In this document: one piece after another, positions 12,001 to 18,000 of the stretch
How positions within the stretch are numbered: position 1 is the stretch's first letter
Layout of the letters: each line of letters starts with the position of its first letter
Origin: a virus
Taxonomy: Duplodnaviria; Heunggongvirae; Uroviricota; Caudoviricetes
Virus record (IMG/VR): IMGVR_UViG_2718218100_000003
Length of the DNA stretch: 64,000 nucleotides
Reading direction: 5' to 3' (one strand)
Position numbers: made by a program

Positions 12001-15000
12001 CTCGTCCTGGTATGGGGAAAACCGAACTGGCGCTGAAGATTGCCGAAGGTGTGGCAAGCCGCGTTATTCCTGGTTCTGACGTCCGGCGCGGGGTATTGAT
12101 TTTCTCAATGGAAATGAGCGCATTGCAGATTGCAGAGCGAAGCATTGCCAACGCCGGGAGGATGTCGGTTAGCGTACTGCGAAATCCTGCATCGATGGAT
12201 GACGAGGGCTGGGCACGTGTTGCTAACGGCATGAGTCAGCTTGCAGATTTGGATGTATGGGTAGTCGATGCTTCGCGGTTATCGGTCGAAGAAATACGCT
12301 CAATCGCAGAACGGCATAAGCAGGAAAATCCAAACCTGTCACTCATCATGGCGGATTATCTTGGCCTGATTGAGAAGCCGAAAGCAGACCGCAACGACCT
12401 CGCAATTGCTCACATCTCCGGAAGCCTGAAGGCGATGGCGAAAGACCTGAAAACACCGGTTATCTCCCTGAGTCAGCTTTCGCGCGATGTTGAGAAGCGA
12501 CCAAACAAACGCCCGACAAACGCAGATTTGCGTGATTCAGGAAGCATTGAACAGGACGCAGACTCAATCATCATGCTCTATCGGGAAGCGGTATATGATG
12601 AGAACAGTAGCGCCGCGCCATTTGCTGAAATCATCGTGACGAAAAACCGTTTTGGCTCGCTTGGTACAGTTTACCAGCGGTTCTGTAACGGACACTTTGT
12701 TGCATGTGACCAGGATGAAGCCAGACAGATTTGCACAGCATCAAATGCACCTGCTGCGCGTGGCAGACGATATGCACAAGGGGCTGACGTATGACCATCT
12801 ACATCACTGAGTTAATAACAGGCCTGCTGGTAATCGCAGGCCTTTTTATTTGGGGGAGAGGGAAGTGAACGATAGCTACCGACAGTTTGAAAACTGGTGG
12901 TCAAAAGACAAAAGCCAGTTCACGGGAGACGATGAATTAAAAGAGTTTGCCTGGGTGATATGGCAGGCATCGCGCTCTGCTATTGAACTGGATATCGACT
13001 GGCCCGAATCGAATGACGACCTTTGGAAAGATGGTGAAGAAGGTGCTTATGCGATGGGTTATGAGGATGGGCGTGACAAAACGGTAATTGCAGTAATGAA
13101 AGCCATCAGGGCCGCAGGAATCAAAGAAAAGAATTTCGATTAAGCAAATATCACTTCAATAAATCGCTTTTAAGGCATCACAATCGCTCTGTGGTGAGGT
13201 AAGCACGTGCAAGGTATACCGATAAGCAGCGAGAATGAAAAATGCGTCAGAATGCGTTTGAGGAGGTTTTAAGAAATGAGTACGATAGCTGAGCTTGTCA
13301 GGGCTAATTTTCGTGAAGAGTTGGTGCGTTGGTATCGGTATCGTTCATCGTCCAGTTTGCCGCTTGATGAGTTGTATGAGCATTCACCTGCCGCACGACG
13401 CTATCCGCGTGACCGTGTTCTTCGACGGTTGTTCAAACTCAACAATGAGTTTCAGCGCAACAGAATTATCCGGAGTCTGGATTTTAAGTGAAGGAGTGAG
13501 CATGAGCGACCTATCATTAACCCAGCCAAAGCTAAAAGAATGTCCGTTTTGCGGCGGTAATGCTCGTCTGTGGGTTGAGGCCGGAATAAATATTGATGTG
13601 TGGGGCTATGCAGAATGTGACCTCTGTGAAGCCAGGGTGGCATGGGCACCATCAGTTGCTGCGGCTACTGAAAAATGGAACCGGAGAGCAGGAGATGAAG
13701 CAAACCTTTCTGCTTCGCAACGAAGCAATCAGAAATAACGCCATAGACGCCATTCTCTCACTACCCATCGACGACAAGTCACCCCACGAAGTCCACGTTA
13801 AAGAACCCAAGCGCAGCAAAGCGCAGAATGACCGCATGTGGCCGATGCTGAACGATGTTTCGCGTCAGGTGCTATGGCATGGTCAACGGCTGGCGCCGGA
13901 AGACTGGAAAGACCTGTTCACTGCCCTGTGGCTTAAGACCAAAAAACTGGAGCAAAGAAGTGCGCCTGGTATCGACGGTGGCGTTGTCATGCTTGGCGTG
14001 CGTACCAGCAAAATGCGAAAGGCCAGCATGACTGAGCTTATCGAAATCATGTTCTGGTTCGGCTCAGAGCGCAACGTGCGGTGGAGTGATGACTCCCGGC
14101 GAGAGTATGAATGGTCACAACGAAAAGGGAAGGCTGCATGACTATCAAATCAAATACGCCAGCACACGACAAGGACTGCTGGCAAACGCCGCTCTGGCTT
14201 TTTGATGCGCTGGATATTGAGTTTGGATTCTGGCTGGATTCAGCTGCGAGCGACAAAAACGCTCTGTGCGCTCACTGGCTAACTGAGGCTGACGACGCGC
14301 TAAATTCTGAGTGGATAAGCCACGGTGCAATCTGGAATAACCCACCGTACAGCAATATCAGGCCGTGGGTGGAAAAAGCCGCTGAGCAGTGCATACAACA
14401 GCGACAGACGGTAGTGATGCTTGTGCCAGAGGATATGTCTGTCGGATGGTTCAGCAAGGCTCTGGAGAGTGTTGACGAAGTTCGCATCATCACTGATGGA
14501 CGGATTAATTTTATCGAACCATCGACAGGGCTGGAGAAGAAGGGAAACAGCAAAGGCTCAATGTTGCTGATTTGGCGACCGTTCATCAGTCCTCGACGGA
14601 TGTTTACTACCGTATCCAAAGCGGCATTGATGGCGATCGGGCTGGGCGTCAGGAGGGCGGCATGAGGCGACAGCGACGAAGTATCACCGACATCATCTGC
14701 GAAAACTGCAAATACCTTCCAACGAAACGCTCCAGAAATAAACGCAAGCCAATCCCAAAAGAATCTGACGTAAAAACCTTCAATTACACGGCTCACCTGT
14801 GGGATATCCGGTGGCTAAGACATCGTGCGAGGAAAACAAGGTGATTGACGTGATGATTTATTCGGGGCTATATTCCTCAAACGCCAGCAAAATCTGGCGT
14901 CGGGATTGGCGTCCTGGATAGAGACCGCGACAGATACACGCCGCGAGCGTGTTTTTTATTGTCGTATGCACGCGCACATCTGAATTATGGTGGGCTGTGT

Positions 15001-18000
15001 GGGGGCGGAGAGATCCGCGCCGGTCGGTTTCCCGGTTACGCCAACCCTGCACAGTTCACCACCAGACGATTGGCGTCGTCGGTGGTGAGTTATTAAGAAA
15101 CCACCAGAGGGCGTCATTATGACAACTAAAATTTCTGTTGAAACTCTCTCCCCGATCACCCATAACCAGATTCCTGTTATTACCACCGAACTTTTGGCGC
15201 AGCTTTACGGCACTGAGCCGGTGCGTATTCGCCAGAATCATCATGAGAACAAAGTACGCTTCGTTGAAGGGAAACACTTTTTCAAAGTTGTTGGTAATGA
15301 CCTTAAAGAATTGCGGGTAGCTTTAAACTACTCACAAAATTTGCGGGTTACTTTAAGTAACTCACAAAATTTGCGGGTTACTTTAAGTAACTCACAAAAT
15401 TTGCAACCATCTTTAAGAGGGTTACAAATTTCCCCGAAAGCCCGCTCCCTCATCCTCTGGACAGAACGCGGCGCAGCCCGTCACGCAAAAATGCTCGAAA
15501 CCGATCGGGCGTGGGAAGTGTTCGAAAAACTGGAAGACTGCTATTTCAGTCAAAAAATCCCAGAACAACTTCAGCTTCCAGAATCAACACTATCTATCAA
15601 CTACCCTCTCTCGTGGTTTTCAGAGCATCACCCCTACTCCATGATGAGCTATGTTGATCGAAAAACTCTTAACCTGGACGTTTCTGTGCTCTTCGATATG
15701 CCAAGCCCAACTATGCGCATCCTCAACGAGCTACACAGCAAGGGCTATAACGTCGATGCAGCTGTCGCCGAATTTAACGCCTTCAAGCATCTGACGGAAG
15801 AAATGCGCCGTACTCTACAGGATATTTCAAGATTGTCAGATCGAAATTCCCGAAAAGGCTTCTCGTTAAGTCTTTAAAGAACAGATCGTTTGACAATGCT
15901 GCATTAACGGGGATATATTCCGCCTCATGGTGCTCAAAACACCTTAGCAAGTAGCGGTTACCGCGCCCGACAGACATGCGGTTTTTTTGTGTCCAGTCTT
16001 CTTGGTTTATGACCGGGCGTGCGGCTAATACAACACCAGCAATGGGAATATGCCCGCCGACTACTTGCGGTTTTGAGCGCCCGGTCACCCTCTCAAAAGG
16101 GGTAAATCAAAATATCAAGTAGGACATAAAGCATGAAAACCATCTCCGTGGAGTCCCTCTCCATAATTTCATTTAGTAATATACCTGTGGTGACTACAGA
16201 GCTTCTTGCCAGCTTATATGGCACAGAACCAGATTACATCCGAAAAAATTTCAATCGGAATTCTGGACGATTTGTTATCGGTAAGCACTACTTTTTACTT
16301 GAGAATGAGGAGTTGCGCGAATTTAAGCACAGTGAACCGCCCCGGTTTTCCTGGAGAGTGTTTTATCTGTGAACTCAGGCTGCCAGATCATCGTTTCCGA
16401 TGGAAGCATAATAAGCTTTTTCTGCTTCTGCCGGAGGAGTATGGCCCAGCCTTCCCAGCAATCGTCGATTGTTATACCAGTCCACCCACGTTAGTGTGGC
16501 CAGTTCCACTTCTGCACGGTTTTTCCAGCTCTTACGGTGTATTACCTCCGCTTTGTAAAGACCATTGATGCTCTCAGCCATCGCGTTGTCATACGAGTCG
16601 CCTGTACTCCCTGTTGATGCCAGTAATCCGGCTTCTTTTAGTCGCTCCGTATAGGCCAGTGACACATACTGAGAGCCTTTATCGCTGTGATGGATGGTGC
16701 CAGACGGACGACGGGCCCACAACGCCTGCTCCAGCGCATCCAGCACGAATGTCGTTTCCATAGACGATGAGACCCGCCACCCCACGATGTATCCGGCAAA
16801 CACATCAATGATAAACGCCACATAGACGAAGCCCTGCCATGTGCTGACGTAAGTAAAATCAGCCACCCACAGCTGGTCAGGTCGTTCTGCCACGAACTGA
16901 CGGTTTACGCGGTCGCCTGCGGCAACGGCTTTCCGGCTGATGGTCGTACGGACCTTTTTACCCCGGAGAACACCGGCAAGTCCCATAACCGCCATGAGAC
17001 GTGCCACTGTACATCTGGCCACCCTGATTCCTTCCCGTAACAACTGACGCCAGACTTTACGCACACCGTACACCTGATGATTTTCATCGTATACGCGCTG
17101 TATCTCTCTCTTCAGCCAGTCGTCGTGCTGCGCACGGGCACTGCGTTTATCCGGATGATGTCGCTGTTGCTGACAATGGTAATACGTTGACGGGGCAATA
17201 TGCAGTTCGCTGCATACCGGTCCGACCCCGTACTGCTCACGCAGCTTATCCAGCAGTGGCATCATTTTTTCCAGAGGCGGTCGAACTCCGCCTTCGCAAA
17301 ATAAGCGGAAGCCTGGCGAAGGATATCGTTACTGCGGCGCAGTTCACGATTTTCACGTTCCAGCTCTTTCAGACGCTGACGTTCAGCGCTGGTGAGCCCA
17401 CCATCACCGCCCCCGGTATCCCGCTCATGCTGGCGAACCCAGACACGCAGAGTCTCCGGCGTACAGCCAATCTTTGGGGCAATGGAACAAATTGCCGCCC
17501 ACTGTGAGTCATATTCATCCTGACTTTCCAGAACCATACGAATCGCCCGCTGACGGACTTCGGGGGAAAAACGAGTATTTTTAGTCATCCTGTTTACCTC
17601 TTTCTCAGGGAGTTTAGTCTCCAGGATTTCCGGGGCGGTTCACAGCATGTCTTTAAGACCTTCTGTGAAAATCGCCCGTAACGTTCGCTCCCTCATCCTC
17701 TGGACAGAACGCGGCGCAGCCCGTCACGCAAAAATGCTCGAAACCGATCGGGCGTGGGAAGTGTTCGAAAAACTGGAAGACTGCTATTTCAGCCAGTGCG
17801 AGAAAAATACTGGCAAACAAGAGAAGAAGCTCAACGGGCTTTCCGCAAAAGAAACAGACAGCCTTGTATGGCTGTGGGATTATGCCAACCGCTCACAGGC
17901 ATTGTTCCGTGAGTTGTATCCCGCATTAAAACTGATTCAGTCTGGCTATTCCGGCATATGCCACGACTACGGCTATGAGTTCTCGTATATCATCGGGAGG

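What the first reader, a model, noticed from the sequence alone, without database searches (positions are those of the whole stretch)
14845..16332. Two tandem promoter - leader terminator - ORF6N gene cassettes in the nin region
Between ninE and ninG the phage carries two cassettes with the same layout: a near-consensus sigma70 promoter (TTGACG/TTGACA - 18 bp - TATATT, both preceded by CGGGG), an intrinsic terminator about 60-90 bp downstream in the leader, then a paralogous ORF6N-domain antirepressor-like gene. A constitutive promoter followed by a leader terminator is the pR'-tR' logic of Q-dependent late genes, so these genes may only be expressed under antitermination (Q, N, or a cis-acting RNA). 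A third antirepressor-like gene (18195-18923) follows. Lambda has only ninF-ninH here, so this looks like a regulatory or anti-immunity accessory module.
Basis: partly seen in the sequence, partly recalled or inferred. Interest (0 to 1): 0.75.

Follow-up and report, generated by a model that had tools for sequence, protein, structure and literature searches.

The report
Antisense-RNA-gated antirepressor cassettes in tandem
The two "promoter – terminator – gene" units in this Shiga-toxin phage are copies of a known phage immunity device: a small antisense RNA encoded just upstream of each antirepressor gene blocks that gene's ribosome-binding site, and the short terminated leader RNA carries decoy copies of the same target.

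Summary
It missed an ~84-nt structured RNA between each leader terminator and its gene. It also missed that IS629 cuts the second gene at 16333.

Cassette 1 matches Rfam isrK, c4-a1b1 and C4 antisense RNA. It is 81% identical (promoter to ATG) to the characterised Gifsy-1 isrK-orf45-anrP locus and has the layout of the phage P1 immI region.

Cassette 2 has the same layout built around an sRNA-Xcc1-family RNA.

In both cassettes, two short segments of the RNA (a', b') are complementary to two sites in the leader (a1, b1). They are also complementary to two sites just downstream (a2, b2), with b2 at the Shine-Dalgarno sequence. These three sets of sites co-vary across 12 C4-type and 50 distinct Xcc1-type modules; permuted pairings never reach the cognate score, apart from 2 of 2000 in the six-module Xcc1 set.

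The best model is translational gating by a cis-encoded antisense RNA, with the terminated leader acting as a decoy. Q-type antitermination is not supported.

Cassette 1 is a known kind. The c4-like logic of the sRNA-Xcc1 family was not stated in any paper I could search.

The parts
14845..14874 (+). Cassette 1 promoter, TTGACG-18-TATATT
   Evidence: 10/12 match. The Gifsy-1 PisrK has TTGACA, the same 18-nt spacing and the same CGGGGCTATATTCC context. Deleting PisrK abolishes expression in Gifsy-1.
14881..14957 (+). IsrK-type leader sRNA. Hairpin 1; hairpin 2 with site a1 (UUGGCGU, 14906-14912) in its loop; site b1 (GAGACC, 14921-14926, one G.U against b'); terminator hairpin 14936-14952 plus U6.
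   Evidence: Rfam isrK 74.7 bits (gathering score 50). Rfam c4-a1b1 45.9 bits (gathering score 46.7) at 14868-14920. Terminator. Sites.
14983..15066 (+). C4-type antisense RNA. b' = GGUUUC, 15026-15031 (loop of hairpin 2). a' = ACGCCAA, 15038-15044 (3' joining strand).
   Evidence: Rfam C4 RF01695, 66.7 bits (gathering score 45). Same positions as a' and b' in P1 c4.
15070..15111 (+). Downstream targets of cassette 1: a2 UUGGCGU 15070-15076; b2 GAAACC 15097-15102; Shine-Dalgarno GAGGG 15107-15111. A conserved hairpin (UCACCACC 15056-15063 with GGUGGUGA 15081-15088) encloses a2.
   Evidence: Covariation of a' with a2: 92.8% of cells paired, against at most 45% when the partner is slid.
15119..15877 (+). 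antA, 252 aa. N-terminal ORF6N domain; homologue of Gifsy-1 AnrP. Contains an in-frame 30-bp x 3.1 tandem repeat at 15311-15404.
   Evidence: Pfam ORF6N, E=2e-18. PHROG 1760 'anti-repressor', E=1e-121. Alignment to AnrP. Repeat.
15890..15919 (+). Cassette 2 promoter, TTGACA-18-TATATT
   Evidence: 11/12 match. Annotated 'promoter sequence by homology' in Nil2. Conserved in related leaders.
15926..15988 (+). Cassette 2 leader: a1 GCUCAAAAC 15932-15940 (hairpin loop); b1 GCAAGUAG 15947-15954; terminator-like hairpin 15960-15982 plus U7 (15982-15988).
   Evidence: This leader does not match the Rfam isrK model.
16011..16094 (+). sRNA-Xcc1-family RNA acting as a C4-like antisense RNA: b' CUACUUGC 16061-16068 (hairpin loop); a' GUUUUGAGC 16070-16078 (3' joining strand).
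   Evidence: Rfam RF02221, 79.3 bits (gathering score 53). Complementarity.
16092..16124 (+). Downstream targets of cassette 2: CUCAAAA 16092-16098 and a2 UCAAAA 16107-16112; b2 CAAGUAG 16116-16122, which runs into the Shine-Dalgarno AGGA 16121-16124. ATG at 16133.
   Evidence: The same arrangement occurs in 50 distinct viral-contig modules.
16133..16332 (+). antB, 5' fragment (ORF6N N-terminus), truncated by IS629
   Evidence: Pfam ORF6N, E=1e-13. Identical to the first 200 nt of the intact Nil2 antB.
16333..17642 (-). IS629 (IS3 family), 1310 bp, with target duplication CAG. It is not part of the regulatory device but inactivates antB.
   Evidence: Junctions and terminal repeats. Transposase ORFs. 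ALIL frameshift pseudoknot at 17191-17307.
17643..18126 (+). antB, 3' fragment (P22 antirepressor C-terminal domain)
   Evidence: Pfam P22_AR_C, E=7.5e-24. Identical to the 3' 486 nt of Nil2 antB.
18143..18164 (+). Terminator-like hairpin after antB (9-bp stem, then a T-run)
18195..18923 (+). roi homologue (weak Rha-like N-terminus, KilAC/ANT C-terminus). Neighbouring gene with no C4-type RNA upstream.
   Evidence: Pfam ANT, E=2.4e-31. Annotated roi in Nil2. No Rfam match upstream.

Best explanation
Each cassette is a P1-immI / Gifsy-1-isrK type RNA switch that keeps an antirepressor gene translationally silent.

Proposed sequence of events:
1. A sigma70 promoter fires. Most transcripts stop at the leader terminator and yield a ~75-nt leader sRNA that carries sites a1 and b1.
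2. Read-through transcripts continue through an ~84-nt structured RNA: C4 family in cassette 1, sRNA-Xcc1 family in cassette 2. By analogy with P1 c4 this RNA is excised.
3. The RNA's hairpin-2 loop (b') and its 3' joining strand (a') pair with a2 and b2 just downstream. b2 abuts or overlaps the Shine-Dalgarno sequence of the ant gene, so translation is blocked. In P1 this also causes Rho-dependent polarity.
4. The leader carries the same two sites, so it competes for the antisense RNA. An excess of short leader RNA should therefore release the ribosome-binding site. This would account for the 140-fold activation of anrP translation by IsrK supplied in trans in Gifsy-1.
5. The antirepressor then antagonises a CI-type repressor and promotes induction.

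The two cassettes have unrelated a/b sequences and so should be orthogonal. In this phage cassette 2 can no longer make AntB because of IS629, but it can still make its RNAs.

Status of each step:
- Shown here: the family matches, the layout, and the three-way complementarity with covariation.
- Shown in relatives: promoter activity, partial read-through, activation in trans, antirepressor function.
- Inferred: RNA processing, the decoy role of the leader, and the repressor that is targeted.
For: Family matches:
- Rfam hits above gathering score for isrK, C4 and sRNA-Xcc1 at the expected positions.
- The same isrK + C4 pair covers the Gifsy-1 isrK-orf45 interval. The window is 81% identical to it from promoter to ATG, and AntA aligns with AnrP from residue 1.
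- The annotated P1 immI order is a1, b1, c4, a2, b2, gene, with a2 4 nt after c4 and b2 at the ribosome-binding site. The window has the same layout.

Complementarity and covariation:
- C4-type modules carry 7 different a and 9 different b sequences. In every module both match the cognate RNA. Cognate score 28.5 against 20.4 +/- 1.0 for permuted pairings (0 of 2000 reach it).
- For a1:a' and a':a2, 93% of cells are paired against at most 49% in slid controls. Four of 7 pairs have changes on both sides.
- Xcc1-type modules: 6 from phage records and 50 distinct cores from viral contigs. Cognate 27.2 against 20.3 +/- 0.36 permuted.
- There is no cross-complementarity of 7 nt or more between the two cassettes of the window.

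Context:
- Genes downstream of Xcc1-type RNAs are antirepressor-like: ORF6N, P22_AR_C, AntA, Rha, KilA-N, Bro-N.
- Gifsy-1 experiments: the promoter is needed, there is partial read-through, IsrK in trans switches on AnrP translation, AnrP induces the prophage, and an ~80-nt processed RNA (STnc1160) comes from the orf45 region.
- The phi24B nin-region Ant, which has a P22 Ant-like C-terminus, aids derepression on induction.
Against: - There are no expression data for this phage.
- b1 of cassette 1 pairs through one G.U, and a2 of cassette 2 is only 6 nt, so individual contacts are short.
- The Gifsy-1 authors explain their data by alternative cis structures plus translation of orf45. They also report that constitutive STnc1160 did not relieve IsrK toxicity, which a simple titration model does not predict.
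- P1 has icd between b2 and ant; the window has none.
- The second leader fails the isrK model and its terminator hairpin is weak.
- Promoter hexamers alone are not above chance.
Confidence: 0.75

Rival explanations
1. The leader terminators are pR'-tR'-like gates, and the genes are expressed only when a phage antiterminator (Q, N or a put-like RNA) modifies polymerase that started at the cassette promoters.
For: A near-consensus promoter is followed by a terminator. In Gifsy-1 the homologous promoter lies immediately downstream of the Q-like gene antQ. One paper describes IsrK as coming from an antitermination-regulated promoter. The nin region is crossed by N-modified polymerase from pR during lytic growth (established lambda biology).
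Against: Here the cassettes lie between ninE and ninG, upstream of Q at 20187-20675. Read-through in Gifsy-1 was partial and seen without induction. The conserved, co-varying features are RNA:RNA pairing sites at the ribosome-binding site, and antitermination does not explain those. I saw no qut- or nut-like element, but this was by eye and not by a formal test.
Confidence: 0.1
2. P4-type immunity. The C4-type RNA pairs with a1/b1 on the nascent leader and makes polymerase stop at the leader terminator. Control would then be mainly transcriptional and autoregulatory rather than translational.
For: a1 and b1 lie directly 5' of the terminator hairpin in both cassettes, and they co-vary with the RNA. 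The Gifsy-1 authors note that IsrK resembles P4 seqA and raise this possibility themselves. It is compatible with the main model.
Against: b2 abuts or overlaps the Shine-Dalgarno sequence in nearly every module, which points to a translational target. Constitutive STnc1160 did not reduce IsrK-dependent toxicity in Gifsy-1. In P1 the established effect is on icd translation (annotation).
Confidence: 0.25
3. The literal Gifsy-1 model. The long transcript folds into an inactive structure. Short IsrK opens it so that a small upstream ORF (orf45, starting at the AUG inside the C4 sequence) is translated, and ant translation follows by coupling.
For: [quoted passage not shown] The AUG at C4 position 5 is conserved in 12 modules (position 4 in P1).
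Against: The upstream ORF is not conserved as a coding sequence. Its length is 14, 17, 33, 36, 45 or 64 codons, or it is fused in frame to ant. Only Gifsy-1 has the overlapping stop. In the window it is 33 codons and ends 31 nt before the antA ATG. Conservation is at the RNA-structure level (Rfam C4).
Confidence: 0.2
4. The small RNAs are primarily trans-acting regulators of host genes, as assumed in the literature for IsrK (Hfq-binding) and sRNA-Xcc1 (virulence sRNA), and their position next to ant genes is incidental.
For: Rfam labels and published target predictions. The Rfam family name for isrK records Hfq binding.
Against: The variable recognition loops match sites a few tens of nucleotides away in the same transcript in 50 or more independent variants. 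The neighbouring genes are consistently antirepressor-like.
Confidence: 0.08

Closest known systems
Phage P1/P7 immI operon (c4 antisense RNA - icd - ant1/ant2)
   Same: The order is the same: promoter, leader with a1 and b1, terminator-like hairpin, ~77-85-nt C4 RNA, a2 4 nt after the RNA, b2 at the ribosome-binding site, antirepressor operon. The positions of a' (3' joining strand) and b' (hairpin-2 loop) in the RNA also match. Cassette 1 matches the Rfam C4 and c4-a1b1 models.
   Different: There is no icd gene, so b2 sits at the ant gene's own ribosome-binding site. The antirepressor belongs to a different protein family (ORF6N versus P1 Ant1/2). No C1-type operator is known at the promoter. 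The host element is lambdoid rather than a P1 plasmid prophage. Cassette 2 uses a different RNA family (sRNA-Xcc1).
Salmonella Gifsy-1 isrK - orf45 (STnc1160) - anrP locus (Hershko-Shalev et al. 2016, PMC4825925)
   Same: Cassette 1 is a direct homologue: 81% nucleotide identity from promoter to ATG, TTGACA (window TTGACG), the same TATATT and the same 18-nt spacing, the same a-site sequence, and AntA and AnrP share their N-terminal ORF6N domain. The leader terminator with partial read-through was shown there.
   Different: The locus sits between ninE and ninG rather than directly downstream of the Q-like gene. The b-site sequence differs (GGUUUC versus GGUGAU). The orf45 reading frame is 33 codons and does not overlap the antA start. 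The AntA C-terminal half differs, and AntA carries a 3 x 10-aa repeat. No isrJ match was found in the window.
sRNA-Xcc1 (Rfam RF02221; Xanthomonas campestris integron sRNA)
   Same: The cassette 2 RNA matches the family model end to end at 79.3 bits.
   Different: The literature treats the family as a trans-acting virulence sRNA with predicted distant targets. In the window and in the viral-contig modules with this motif, it lies immediately upstream of an antirepressor-like gene and its variable segments match sites in its own leader and at that gene's ribosome-binding site. Whether the Xanthomonas integron copies work this way was not tested.
Satellite phage P4 immunity (CI RNA with seqA and seqC)
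   Same: A processed small RNA from an untranslated leader pairs with two sites, one upstream and one downstream of itself, in the same transcript (as summarised).
   Different: In P4 the outcome is premature transcription termination of replication genes, not occlusion of an antirepressor's ribosome-binding site. No P4 sequence comparison was made here.
Lambda-type pR' - tR' - Q late control (6S RNA, StxS)
   Same: A constitutive promoter followed by an early intrinsic terminator produces an abundant short RNA.
   Different: The position is upstream of Q. There is no evidence for a Q-binding or pause element. An antisense RNA and its co-varying ribosome-binding-site targets are present, and pR' units lack these.

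Membership tests
P1-type immI (c4 antisense RNA control of an antirepressor) | A C4-family RNA: closing stem, two internal hairpins, 3' CACC tail | tested here: met
   Cassette 1: Rfam RF01695, 66.7 bits against a gathering score of 45, full length. Cassette 2 does not match C4. It matches RF02221, which has the same topology.
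P1-type immI (c4 antisense RNA control of an antirepressor) | Two segments of the RNA (a', b') complementary to a2/b2 downstream, with b2 at the ribosome-binding site of the first gene | tested here: met
   Cassette 1: a2 7 nt, b2 6 nt ending 4 nt before the Shine-Dalgarno sequence. Cassette 2: a2 6-7 nt, b2 7 nt overlapping the Shine-Dalgarno sequence. Covariation across modules.
P1-type immI (c4 antisense RNA control of an antirepressor) | Duplicate sites a1/b1 in the leader upstream of the RNA | tested here: met
   Rfam c4-a1b1 scores 45.9 bits, just under its gathering score of 46.7. b1 of cassette 1 includes one G.U pair.
P1-type immI (c4 antisense RNA control of an antirepressor) | The RNA is excised from the operon transcript by RNase P and acts in trans | not testable with these tools
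   Only the tRNA-like 3' end (CACCA / CACCC) is visible in the sequence. Processing is known for P1 from my own recollection of the literature. An ~80-nt processed species was seen in Gifsy-1.
P1-type immI (c4 antisense RNA control of an antirepressor) | icd gene between the target sites and ant, with translational coupling and Rho polarity | tested here: not met
   Only 52 nt (cassette 1) and 38 nt (cassette 2) separate the RNA from the ant start codon, so there is no room for icd.
Gifsy-1 isrK-orf45-anrP system | IsrK sRNA with its own promoter and an intrinsic terminator that is partly read through | tested here: inconclusive
   Sequence features are met for cassette 1: Rfam isrK 74.7 bits, promoter and terminator present. 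Read-through cannot be measured here. The cassette 2 leader does not match isrK.
Gifsy-1 isrK-orf45-anrP system | Translated orf45 whose stop codon overlaps the antirepressor start (AUGA coupling) | tested here: not met
   In the window the ORF from the conserved AUG (14987) is 33 codons and ends 31 nt before the antA ATG. Its length and frame vary among 13 modules.
Gifsy-1 isrK-orf45-anrP system | Downstream antirepressor homologous to AnrP | tested here: met
   AntA and AnrP align from residue 1 through the ORF6N domain. The first 27 residues differ at one position.
Q-dependent late unit (pR'-tR') | Located directly downstream of the Q gene and driving the late/lysis operon | tested here: not met
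   The cassettes lie between ninE (14572-14844) and ninG (18923-19528). The ORF at 20187-20675, in the position annotated q (late antiterminator Q) in the near-identical Nil2 record, is further downstream.
Q-dependent late unit (pR'-tR') | Q-binding element and promoter-proximal sigma-dependent pause | not tested
   No tool or model was available for this. Nothing obvious was seen by eye in 14875-14900 or 15920-15945.
sRNA-Xcc1 (RF02221) | Match to the family covariance model above its gathering score | tested here: met
   79.3 bits against 53, model positions 1-87 of 87.

The most novel reading that the evidence does not exclude
The sRNA-Xcc1 family is not a set of trans-acting virulence sRNAs. 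It is a second, very diverse lineage of c4-type immunity RNAs. Each copy carries a hypervariable address (a'/b') that is copied into its own leader (as a decoy) and onto the ribosome-binding site of the adjacent antirepressor-like gene.

In E. coli that carry many prophages, up to 7 such loci occur per genome. Antisense RNAs and leader decoys that share or differ in address could then form a trans-acting network. That network would decide which prophages, Stx phages included, are held silent or induced together.
Probability: 0.3. Interest if true: 0.7.

Novelty: new member of a known kind. Interest (0 to 1): 0.4.

Why it matters
Antirepressors can induce prophages without RecA-mediated repressor cleavage, and induction of Stx phages drives toxin production. 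Knowing that antA and antB are held off by addressable antisense RNAs, with leader RNAs as likely decoys, gives a testable route to SOS-independent Stx-phage induction and to cross-talk between co-resident prophages.

The work also corrects annotation. The RNAs are absent from RefSeq annotation of these loci. They are overlaid by spurious ORFs in several phage records: Nil2 ORF23 and ORF57, and over-extended 'antirepressor' CDSs.

It also suggests that the function assigned to the sRNA-Xcc1 family in the literature should be reconsidered.

Tried and rejected
1. 24B_1, the microRNA-size RNA of phage phi24B said to regulate an ant gene. It maps between lom and vb_24B_43, and its proposed target d_ant is downstream of R, so it is unrelated to this locus.
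2. Promoter enrichment. The number of promoter-like sites in the region is not above shuffled expectation, so I did not use it as evidence.
3. RNAduplex on whole segments gave long, uninformative duplexes. I replaced it with a search for exact complementary runs.
4. A two-site score over a broad 'core' of the RNA was noisy for the leader, because conserved stems match conserved leader stems. I replaced it with windows anchored on a' and b'.
5. MAFFT does not align the variable b sites, so formal pair counting was done only for the a sites. The unpaired cells there come from shifted P1 and GER2 rows, which are in fact fully complementary.
6. I first named the sites the wrong way round. This was corrected to the P1 convention after reading the P1 annotation.
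7. The P1 genome paper and the 2011 sRNA-Xcc1 paper are not held in the library.
8. Searches for a paper on antA/antB or IsrK in Stx phages found only passing mentions.
9. I looked for a C4-type RNA upstream of roi and found none.

Full report
**What is in the sequence.** The window is a lambdoid Stx2c-type phage. Region 14800-16340 is 100% identical to Stx2c phage Stx2_EH1904 and 99.9% identical to phage Nil2. Nil2 annotates ninE, antA, a 'promoter by homology', antB, roi and ninG in this stretch.

The two promoter-like sites are present: 14845-14874, TTGACG-18-TATATT, and 15890-15919, TTGACA-18-TATATT. The first leader hairpin with its T-run (14936-14952) is also present. Pfam finds ORF6N in both downstream ORFs, NinE upstream, NinG downstream, and a KilAC/ANT domain in 18195-18923.

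Two things need correcting.
- The second ORF is only the first 200 nt of antB. IS629 (16333-17642, 1310 bp, target duplication CAG) splits the gene, and the P22_AR_C half follows at 17643-18126. In Nil2 the gene is intact at 226 aa.
- Hexamer matches of this quality are not rare. Two sites of >=10/12 appear in 23.5% of shuffles of the region.

Rfam finds structured RNAs between each terminator and its gene.
- isrK at 14881-14957 (74.7 bits, gathering score 50).
- c4-a1b1 at 14868-14920 (45.9 bits, gathering score 46.7).
- C4 antisense RNA at 14983-15066 (66.7 bits, gathering score 45).
- sRNA-Xcc1 at 16011-16094 (79.3 bits, gathering score 53).

So the layout of each cassette is promoter, leader sRNA with terminator, ~84-nt structured RNA, ribosome-binding site, antirepressor gene.

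**Cassette 1 is a homologue of two studied systems.** In Gifsy-1 the interval between the Q-like gene and the antirepressor anrP gives the same Rfam pair, isrK plus C4. Its promoter has TTGACA where the window has TTGACG, with the same TATATT -10 hexamer, 18-nt spacing and CGGGGCTATATTCC context. The window is 81% identical to it from promoter to ATG, and AntA aligns with AnrP from residue 1 through the ORF6N domain.

For that locus Hershko-Shalev et al. showed the following:
- the promoter drives both the short IsrK RNA and a read-through mRNA;
- the mRNA is translationally silent;
- IsrK supplied in trans raises anrP translation about 140-fold;
- AnrP induces the prophage;
- an ~80-nt RNA (STnc1160) is processed from the 'orf45' region.

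The 'orf45' region is the C4 match.

In phage P1 the annotated immI order is a1, b1, c4 RNA, a2 (4 nt after c4), b2 (at the icd ribosome-binding site), icd, ant. a' lies in the 3' joining strand of c4 and b' in the loop of hairpin 2. The P1 leader also has the two hairpins and a hairpin plus U-run before c4.

**Pairing sites in the window (P1 nomenclature).**

| Site | Cassette 1 | Cassette 2 |
|---|---|---|
| a1 | UUGGCGU 14906-14912 | GCUCAAAAC 15932-15940 |
| b1 | GAGACC 14921-14926 (one G.U) | GCAAGUAG 15947-15954 |
| b' | GGUUUC 15026-15031 | CUACUUGC 16061-16068 |
| a' | ACGCCAA 15038-15044 | GUUUUGAGC 16070-16078 |
| a2 | UUGGCGU 15070-15076 | UCAAAA 16107-16112 (also CUCAAAA 16092-16098) |
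| b2 | GAAACC 15097-15102 | CAAGUAG 16116-16122 |
| Shine-Dalgarno | GAGGG 15107-15111 | AGGA 16121-16124 (overlapped by b2) |
| Start codon | 15119 | 16133 |

The two cassettes share no complementary run of 7 nt or more with each other's targets.

**Is the complementarity more than chance?** I collected 11 further C4-type modules, including P1, and 5 further Xcc1-type modules from phage records.

Among the C4-type modules there are 7 different a sequences and 9 different b sequences. In every module the leader site and the downstream site match the cognate RNA. Cognate summed complementarity is 28.5. Permuting RNAs among modules gives 20.4 +/- 1.0, and 0 of 2000 permutations reach the cognate value.

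Pair counting on a MAFFT alignment gives, for a1:a', 92.9% of cells paired against at most 49% when the partner is slid. Four of 7 pairs have changes on both sides. No shuffle of 500 reaches the covariation score or the count of cells changed on both sides. The results for a':a2 are equivalent.

For the Xcc1 type, a motif search of viral contigs returned 124 modules with 50 distinct recognition cores. Cognate score is 27.2 against 20.3 +/- 0.36 permuted (highest permuted value 21.3). b2 almost always lies directly 5' of, or runs into, a GGAG/GAGG Shine-Dalgarno sequence.

In 39 of these 50 the leader has a hairpin plus U5-7. The stem co-varies (CCAAC/GUUGG, CCGC/GCGG) around a conserved CCCGNYAG loop. 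In 33 of 50 there is a promoter match of >=9/12.

The downstream genes are antirepressor-like: ORF6N 12, P22_AR_C 11, AntA 9, Rha 8, KilA-N 8, Bro-N 3 and P22_AR_N 2, out of 44.

**Mechanism.** The best-supported reading is translational gating by a cis-encoded antisense RNA, as in P1 immI. The terminated leader RNA carries a second copy of both target sites. Because the leader and the ribosome-binding site carry the same two addresses, the short leader RNA should compete for the antisense RNA. This would explain why IsrK in trans switches on anrP translation in Gifsy-1.

That last step is my inference. The Gifsy-1 authors instead invoke alternative cis structures and translation of orf45, and they report one result (constitutive STnc1160 did not relieve toxicity) that simple titration does not predict.

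The orf45 reading frame is not conserved. From the conserved AUG at C4 position 5 it runs 14, 17, 33, 36, 45 or 64 codons, or fuses in frame to ant. Only Gifsy-1 has the AUGA overlap. In the window it is 33 codons and ends 31 nt before antA. So what is conserved is the RNA, not a peptide.

A P4-like alternative is that the antisense RNA pairs with a1/b1 to enforce leader termination. It is compatible with the data and was not excluded.

The promoter-plus-terminator observation is sound, and the short RNA it predicts is real in the homologue. The cassettes, however, lie upstream of Q. Nothing points to a Q or N loading site on transcripts from the local promoters. The conserved and co-varying features are RNA:RNA contacts at the ribosome-binding site. 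N-modified polymerase from pR probably does read through both leader terminators during lytic growth, but that is inference from lambda biology.

**Tandem arrangement.** Tandem modules recur in other phages: C4-type then Xcc1-type in GER2 and phiSTEC1589, and two Xcc1-type modules in Stx2a 981509. AntA and AntB share an identical central segment ([36 protein letters not shown]). VT2-Sakai has a single ant whose N-terminal 145 residues are 91% identical to AntA. The doublet therefore probably arose by recombination between modules; this is inference.

Parts of the region occur in 1113 of 5426 complete E. coli genomes. The full doublet occurs in 88. One genome has up to 7 matching places. RefSeq lists only protein-coding features under the matches.

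**Novelty.** Cassette 1 is a new member of a characterised kind (P1 c4, Gifsy-1 IsrK). Cassette 2 uses an RNA family that the literature treats as a trans-acting virulence sRNA. One paper notes only that it sits next to an ORF6N gene. I found no paper stating that sRNA-Xcc1-family RNAs work like c4. The covariation shown here makes that reading strong for the phage-borne copies. The Xanthomonas integron copies were not examined.

Noticed in passing
window 16333-17642: IS629 (IS3 family, 1310 bp, target duplication CAG) is inserted in antB. In phage 2851 the match to this region breaks at a different point (about window 15871), which suggests an insertion elsewhere. Nil2 has no insertion. The Rfam ALIL frameshift pseudoknot lies at 17191-17307 (-).
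   Followed up: partly
window 15311-15404: An in-frame 30-bp tandem repeat (3.1 copies, 92% matches) encodes NLRVTLSNSQ x3 inside the ORF6N domain of AntA. It is absent from AntB and from Gifsy-1 AnrP. Its effect on function is unknown.
   Followed up: partly
window 15056-15063 with 15081-15088: The 3' strand of the C4 closing stem (UCACCACC) is also complementary to GGUGGUGA 15 nt downstream. The resulting alternative hairpin would present a2 in its loop. The pairing is conserved in 9 of 11 C4-type modules, with UCGCCACC/GGUGGCGA in Min27. It may compete with formation or processing of C4.
   Followed up: partly
L015-L134 (viral contigs) and window 15966-15974: The loop of the leader terminator in Xcc1-type leaders carries a conserved CCCGNYAG motif. 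IsrK-type leaders carry CGACAGA just before their terminator. Its function is unknown; a binding or processing site is one possibility.
   Followed up: no
window 14987-15088: The 'orf45' reading frame inside the C4 RNA is 33 codons here. It varies from 14 codons to in-frame fusions in relatives. Only Gifsy-1 has a stop that overlaps the antirepressor start.
   Followed up: yes
L001 (Nil2), L008-L010: Public records place spurious or over-extended ORFs across these RNAs: Nil2 ORF23 and ORF57, and 'putative antirepressor' or 'transcriptional regulator' CDSs that start upstream of isrK. Several Stx phage records label ant genes 'antitermination'. RefSeq E. coli genomes list no RNA feature here.
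   Followed up: partly
window 22640-22851, 5992-6050 (-), 20989-21229: Other Rfam matches in the window: STnc100 (158.5 bits), the lambda cIII thermoregulator (88.5 bits) and three tRNAs upstream of the toxin region.
   Followed up: no
E. coli complete genomes: There are up to 7 matching places in a single O157:H7 genome (strain 7.1_Anguil). Several prophages in one cell therefore carry such modules. Whether their a/b addresses coincide was not checked.
   Followed up: no
L004 (GER2) 540-1123: In GER2 and ArgO145 a HigB-type toxin-antitoxin pair lies on the opposite strand immediately upstream of the isrK-type promoter.
   Followed up: no
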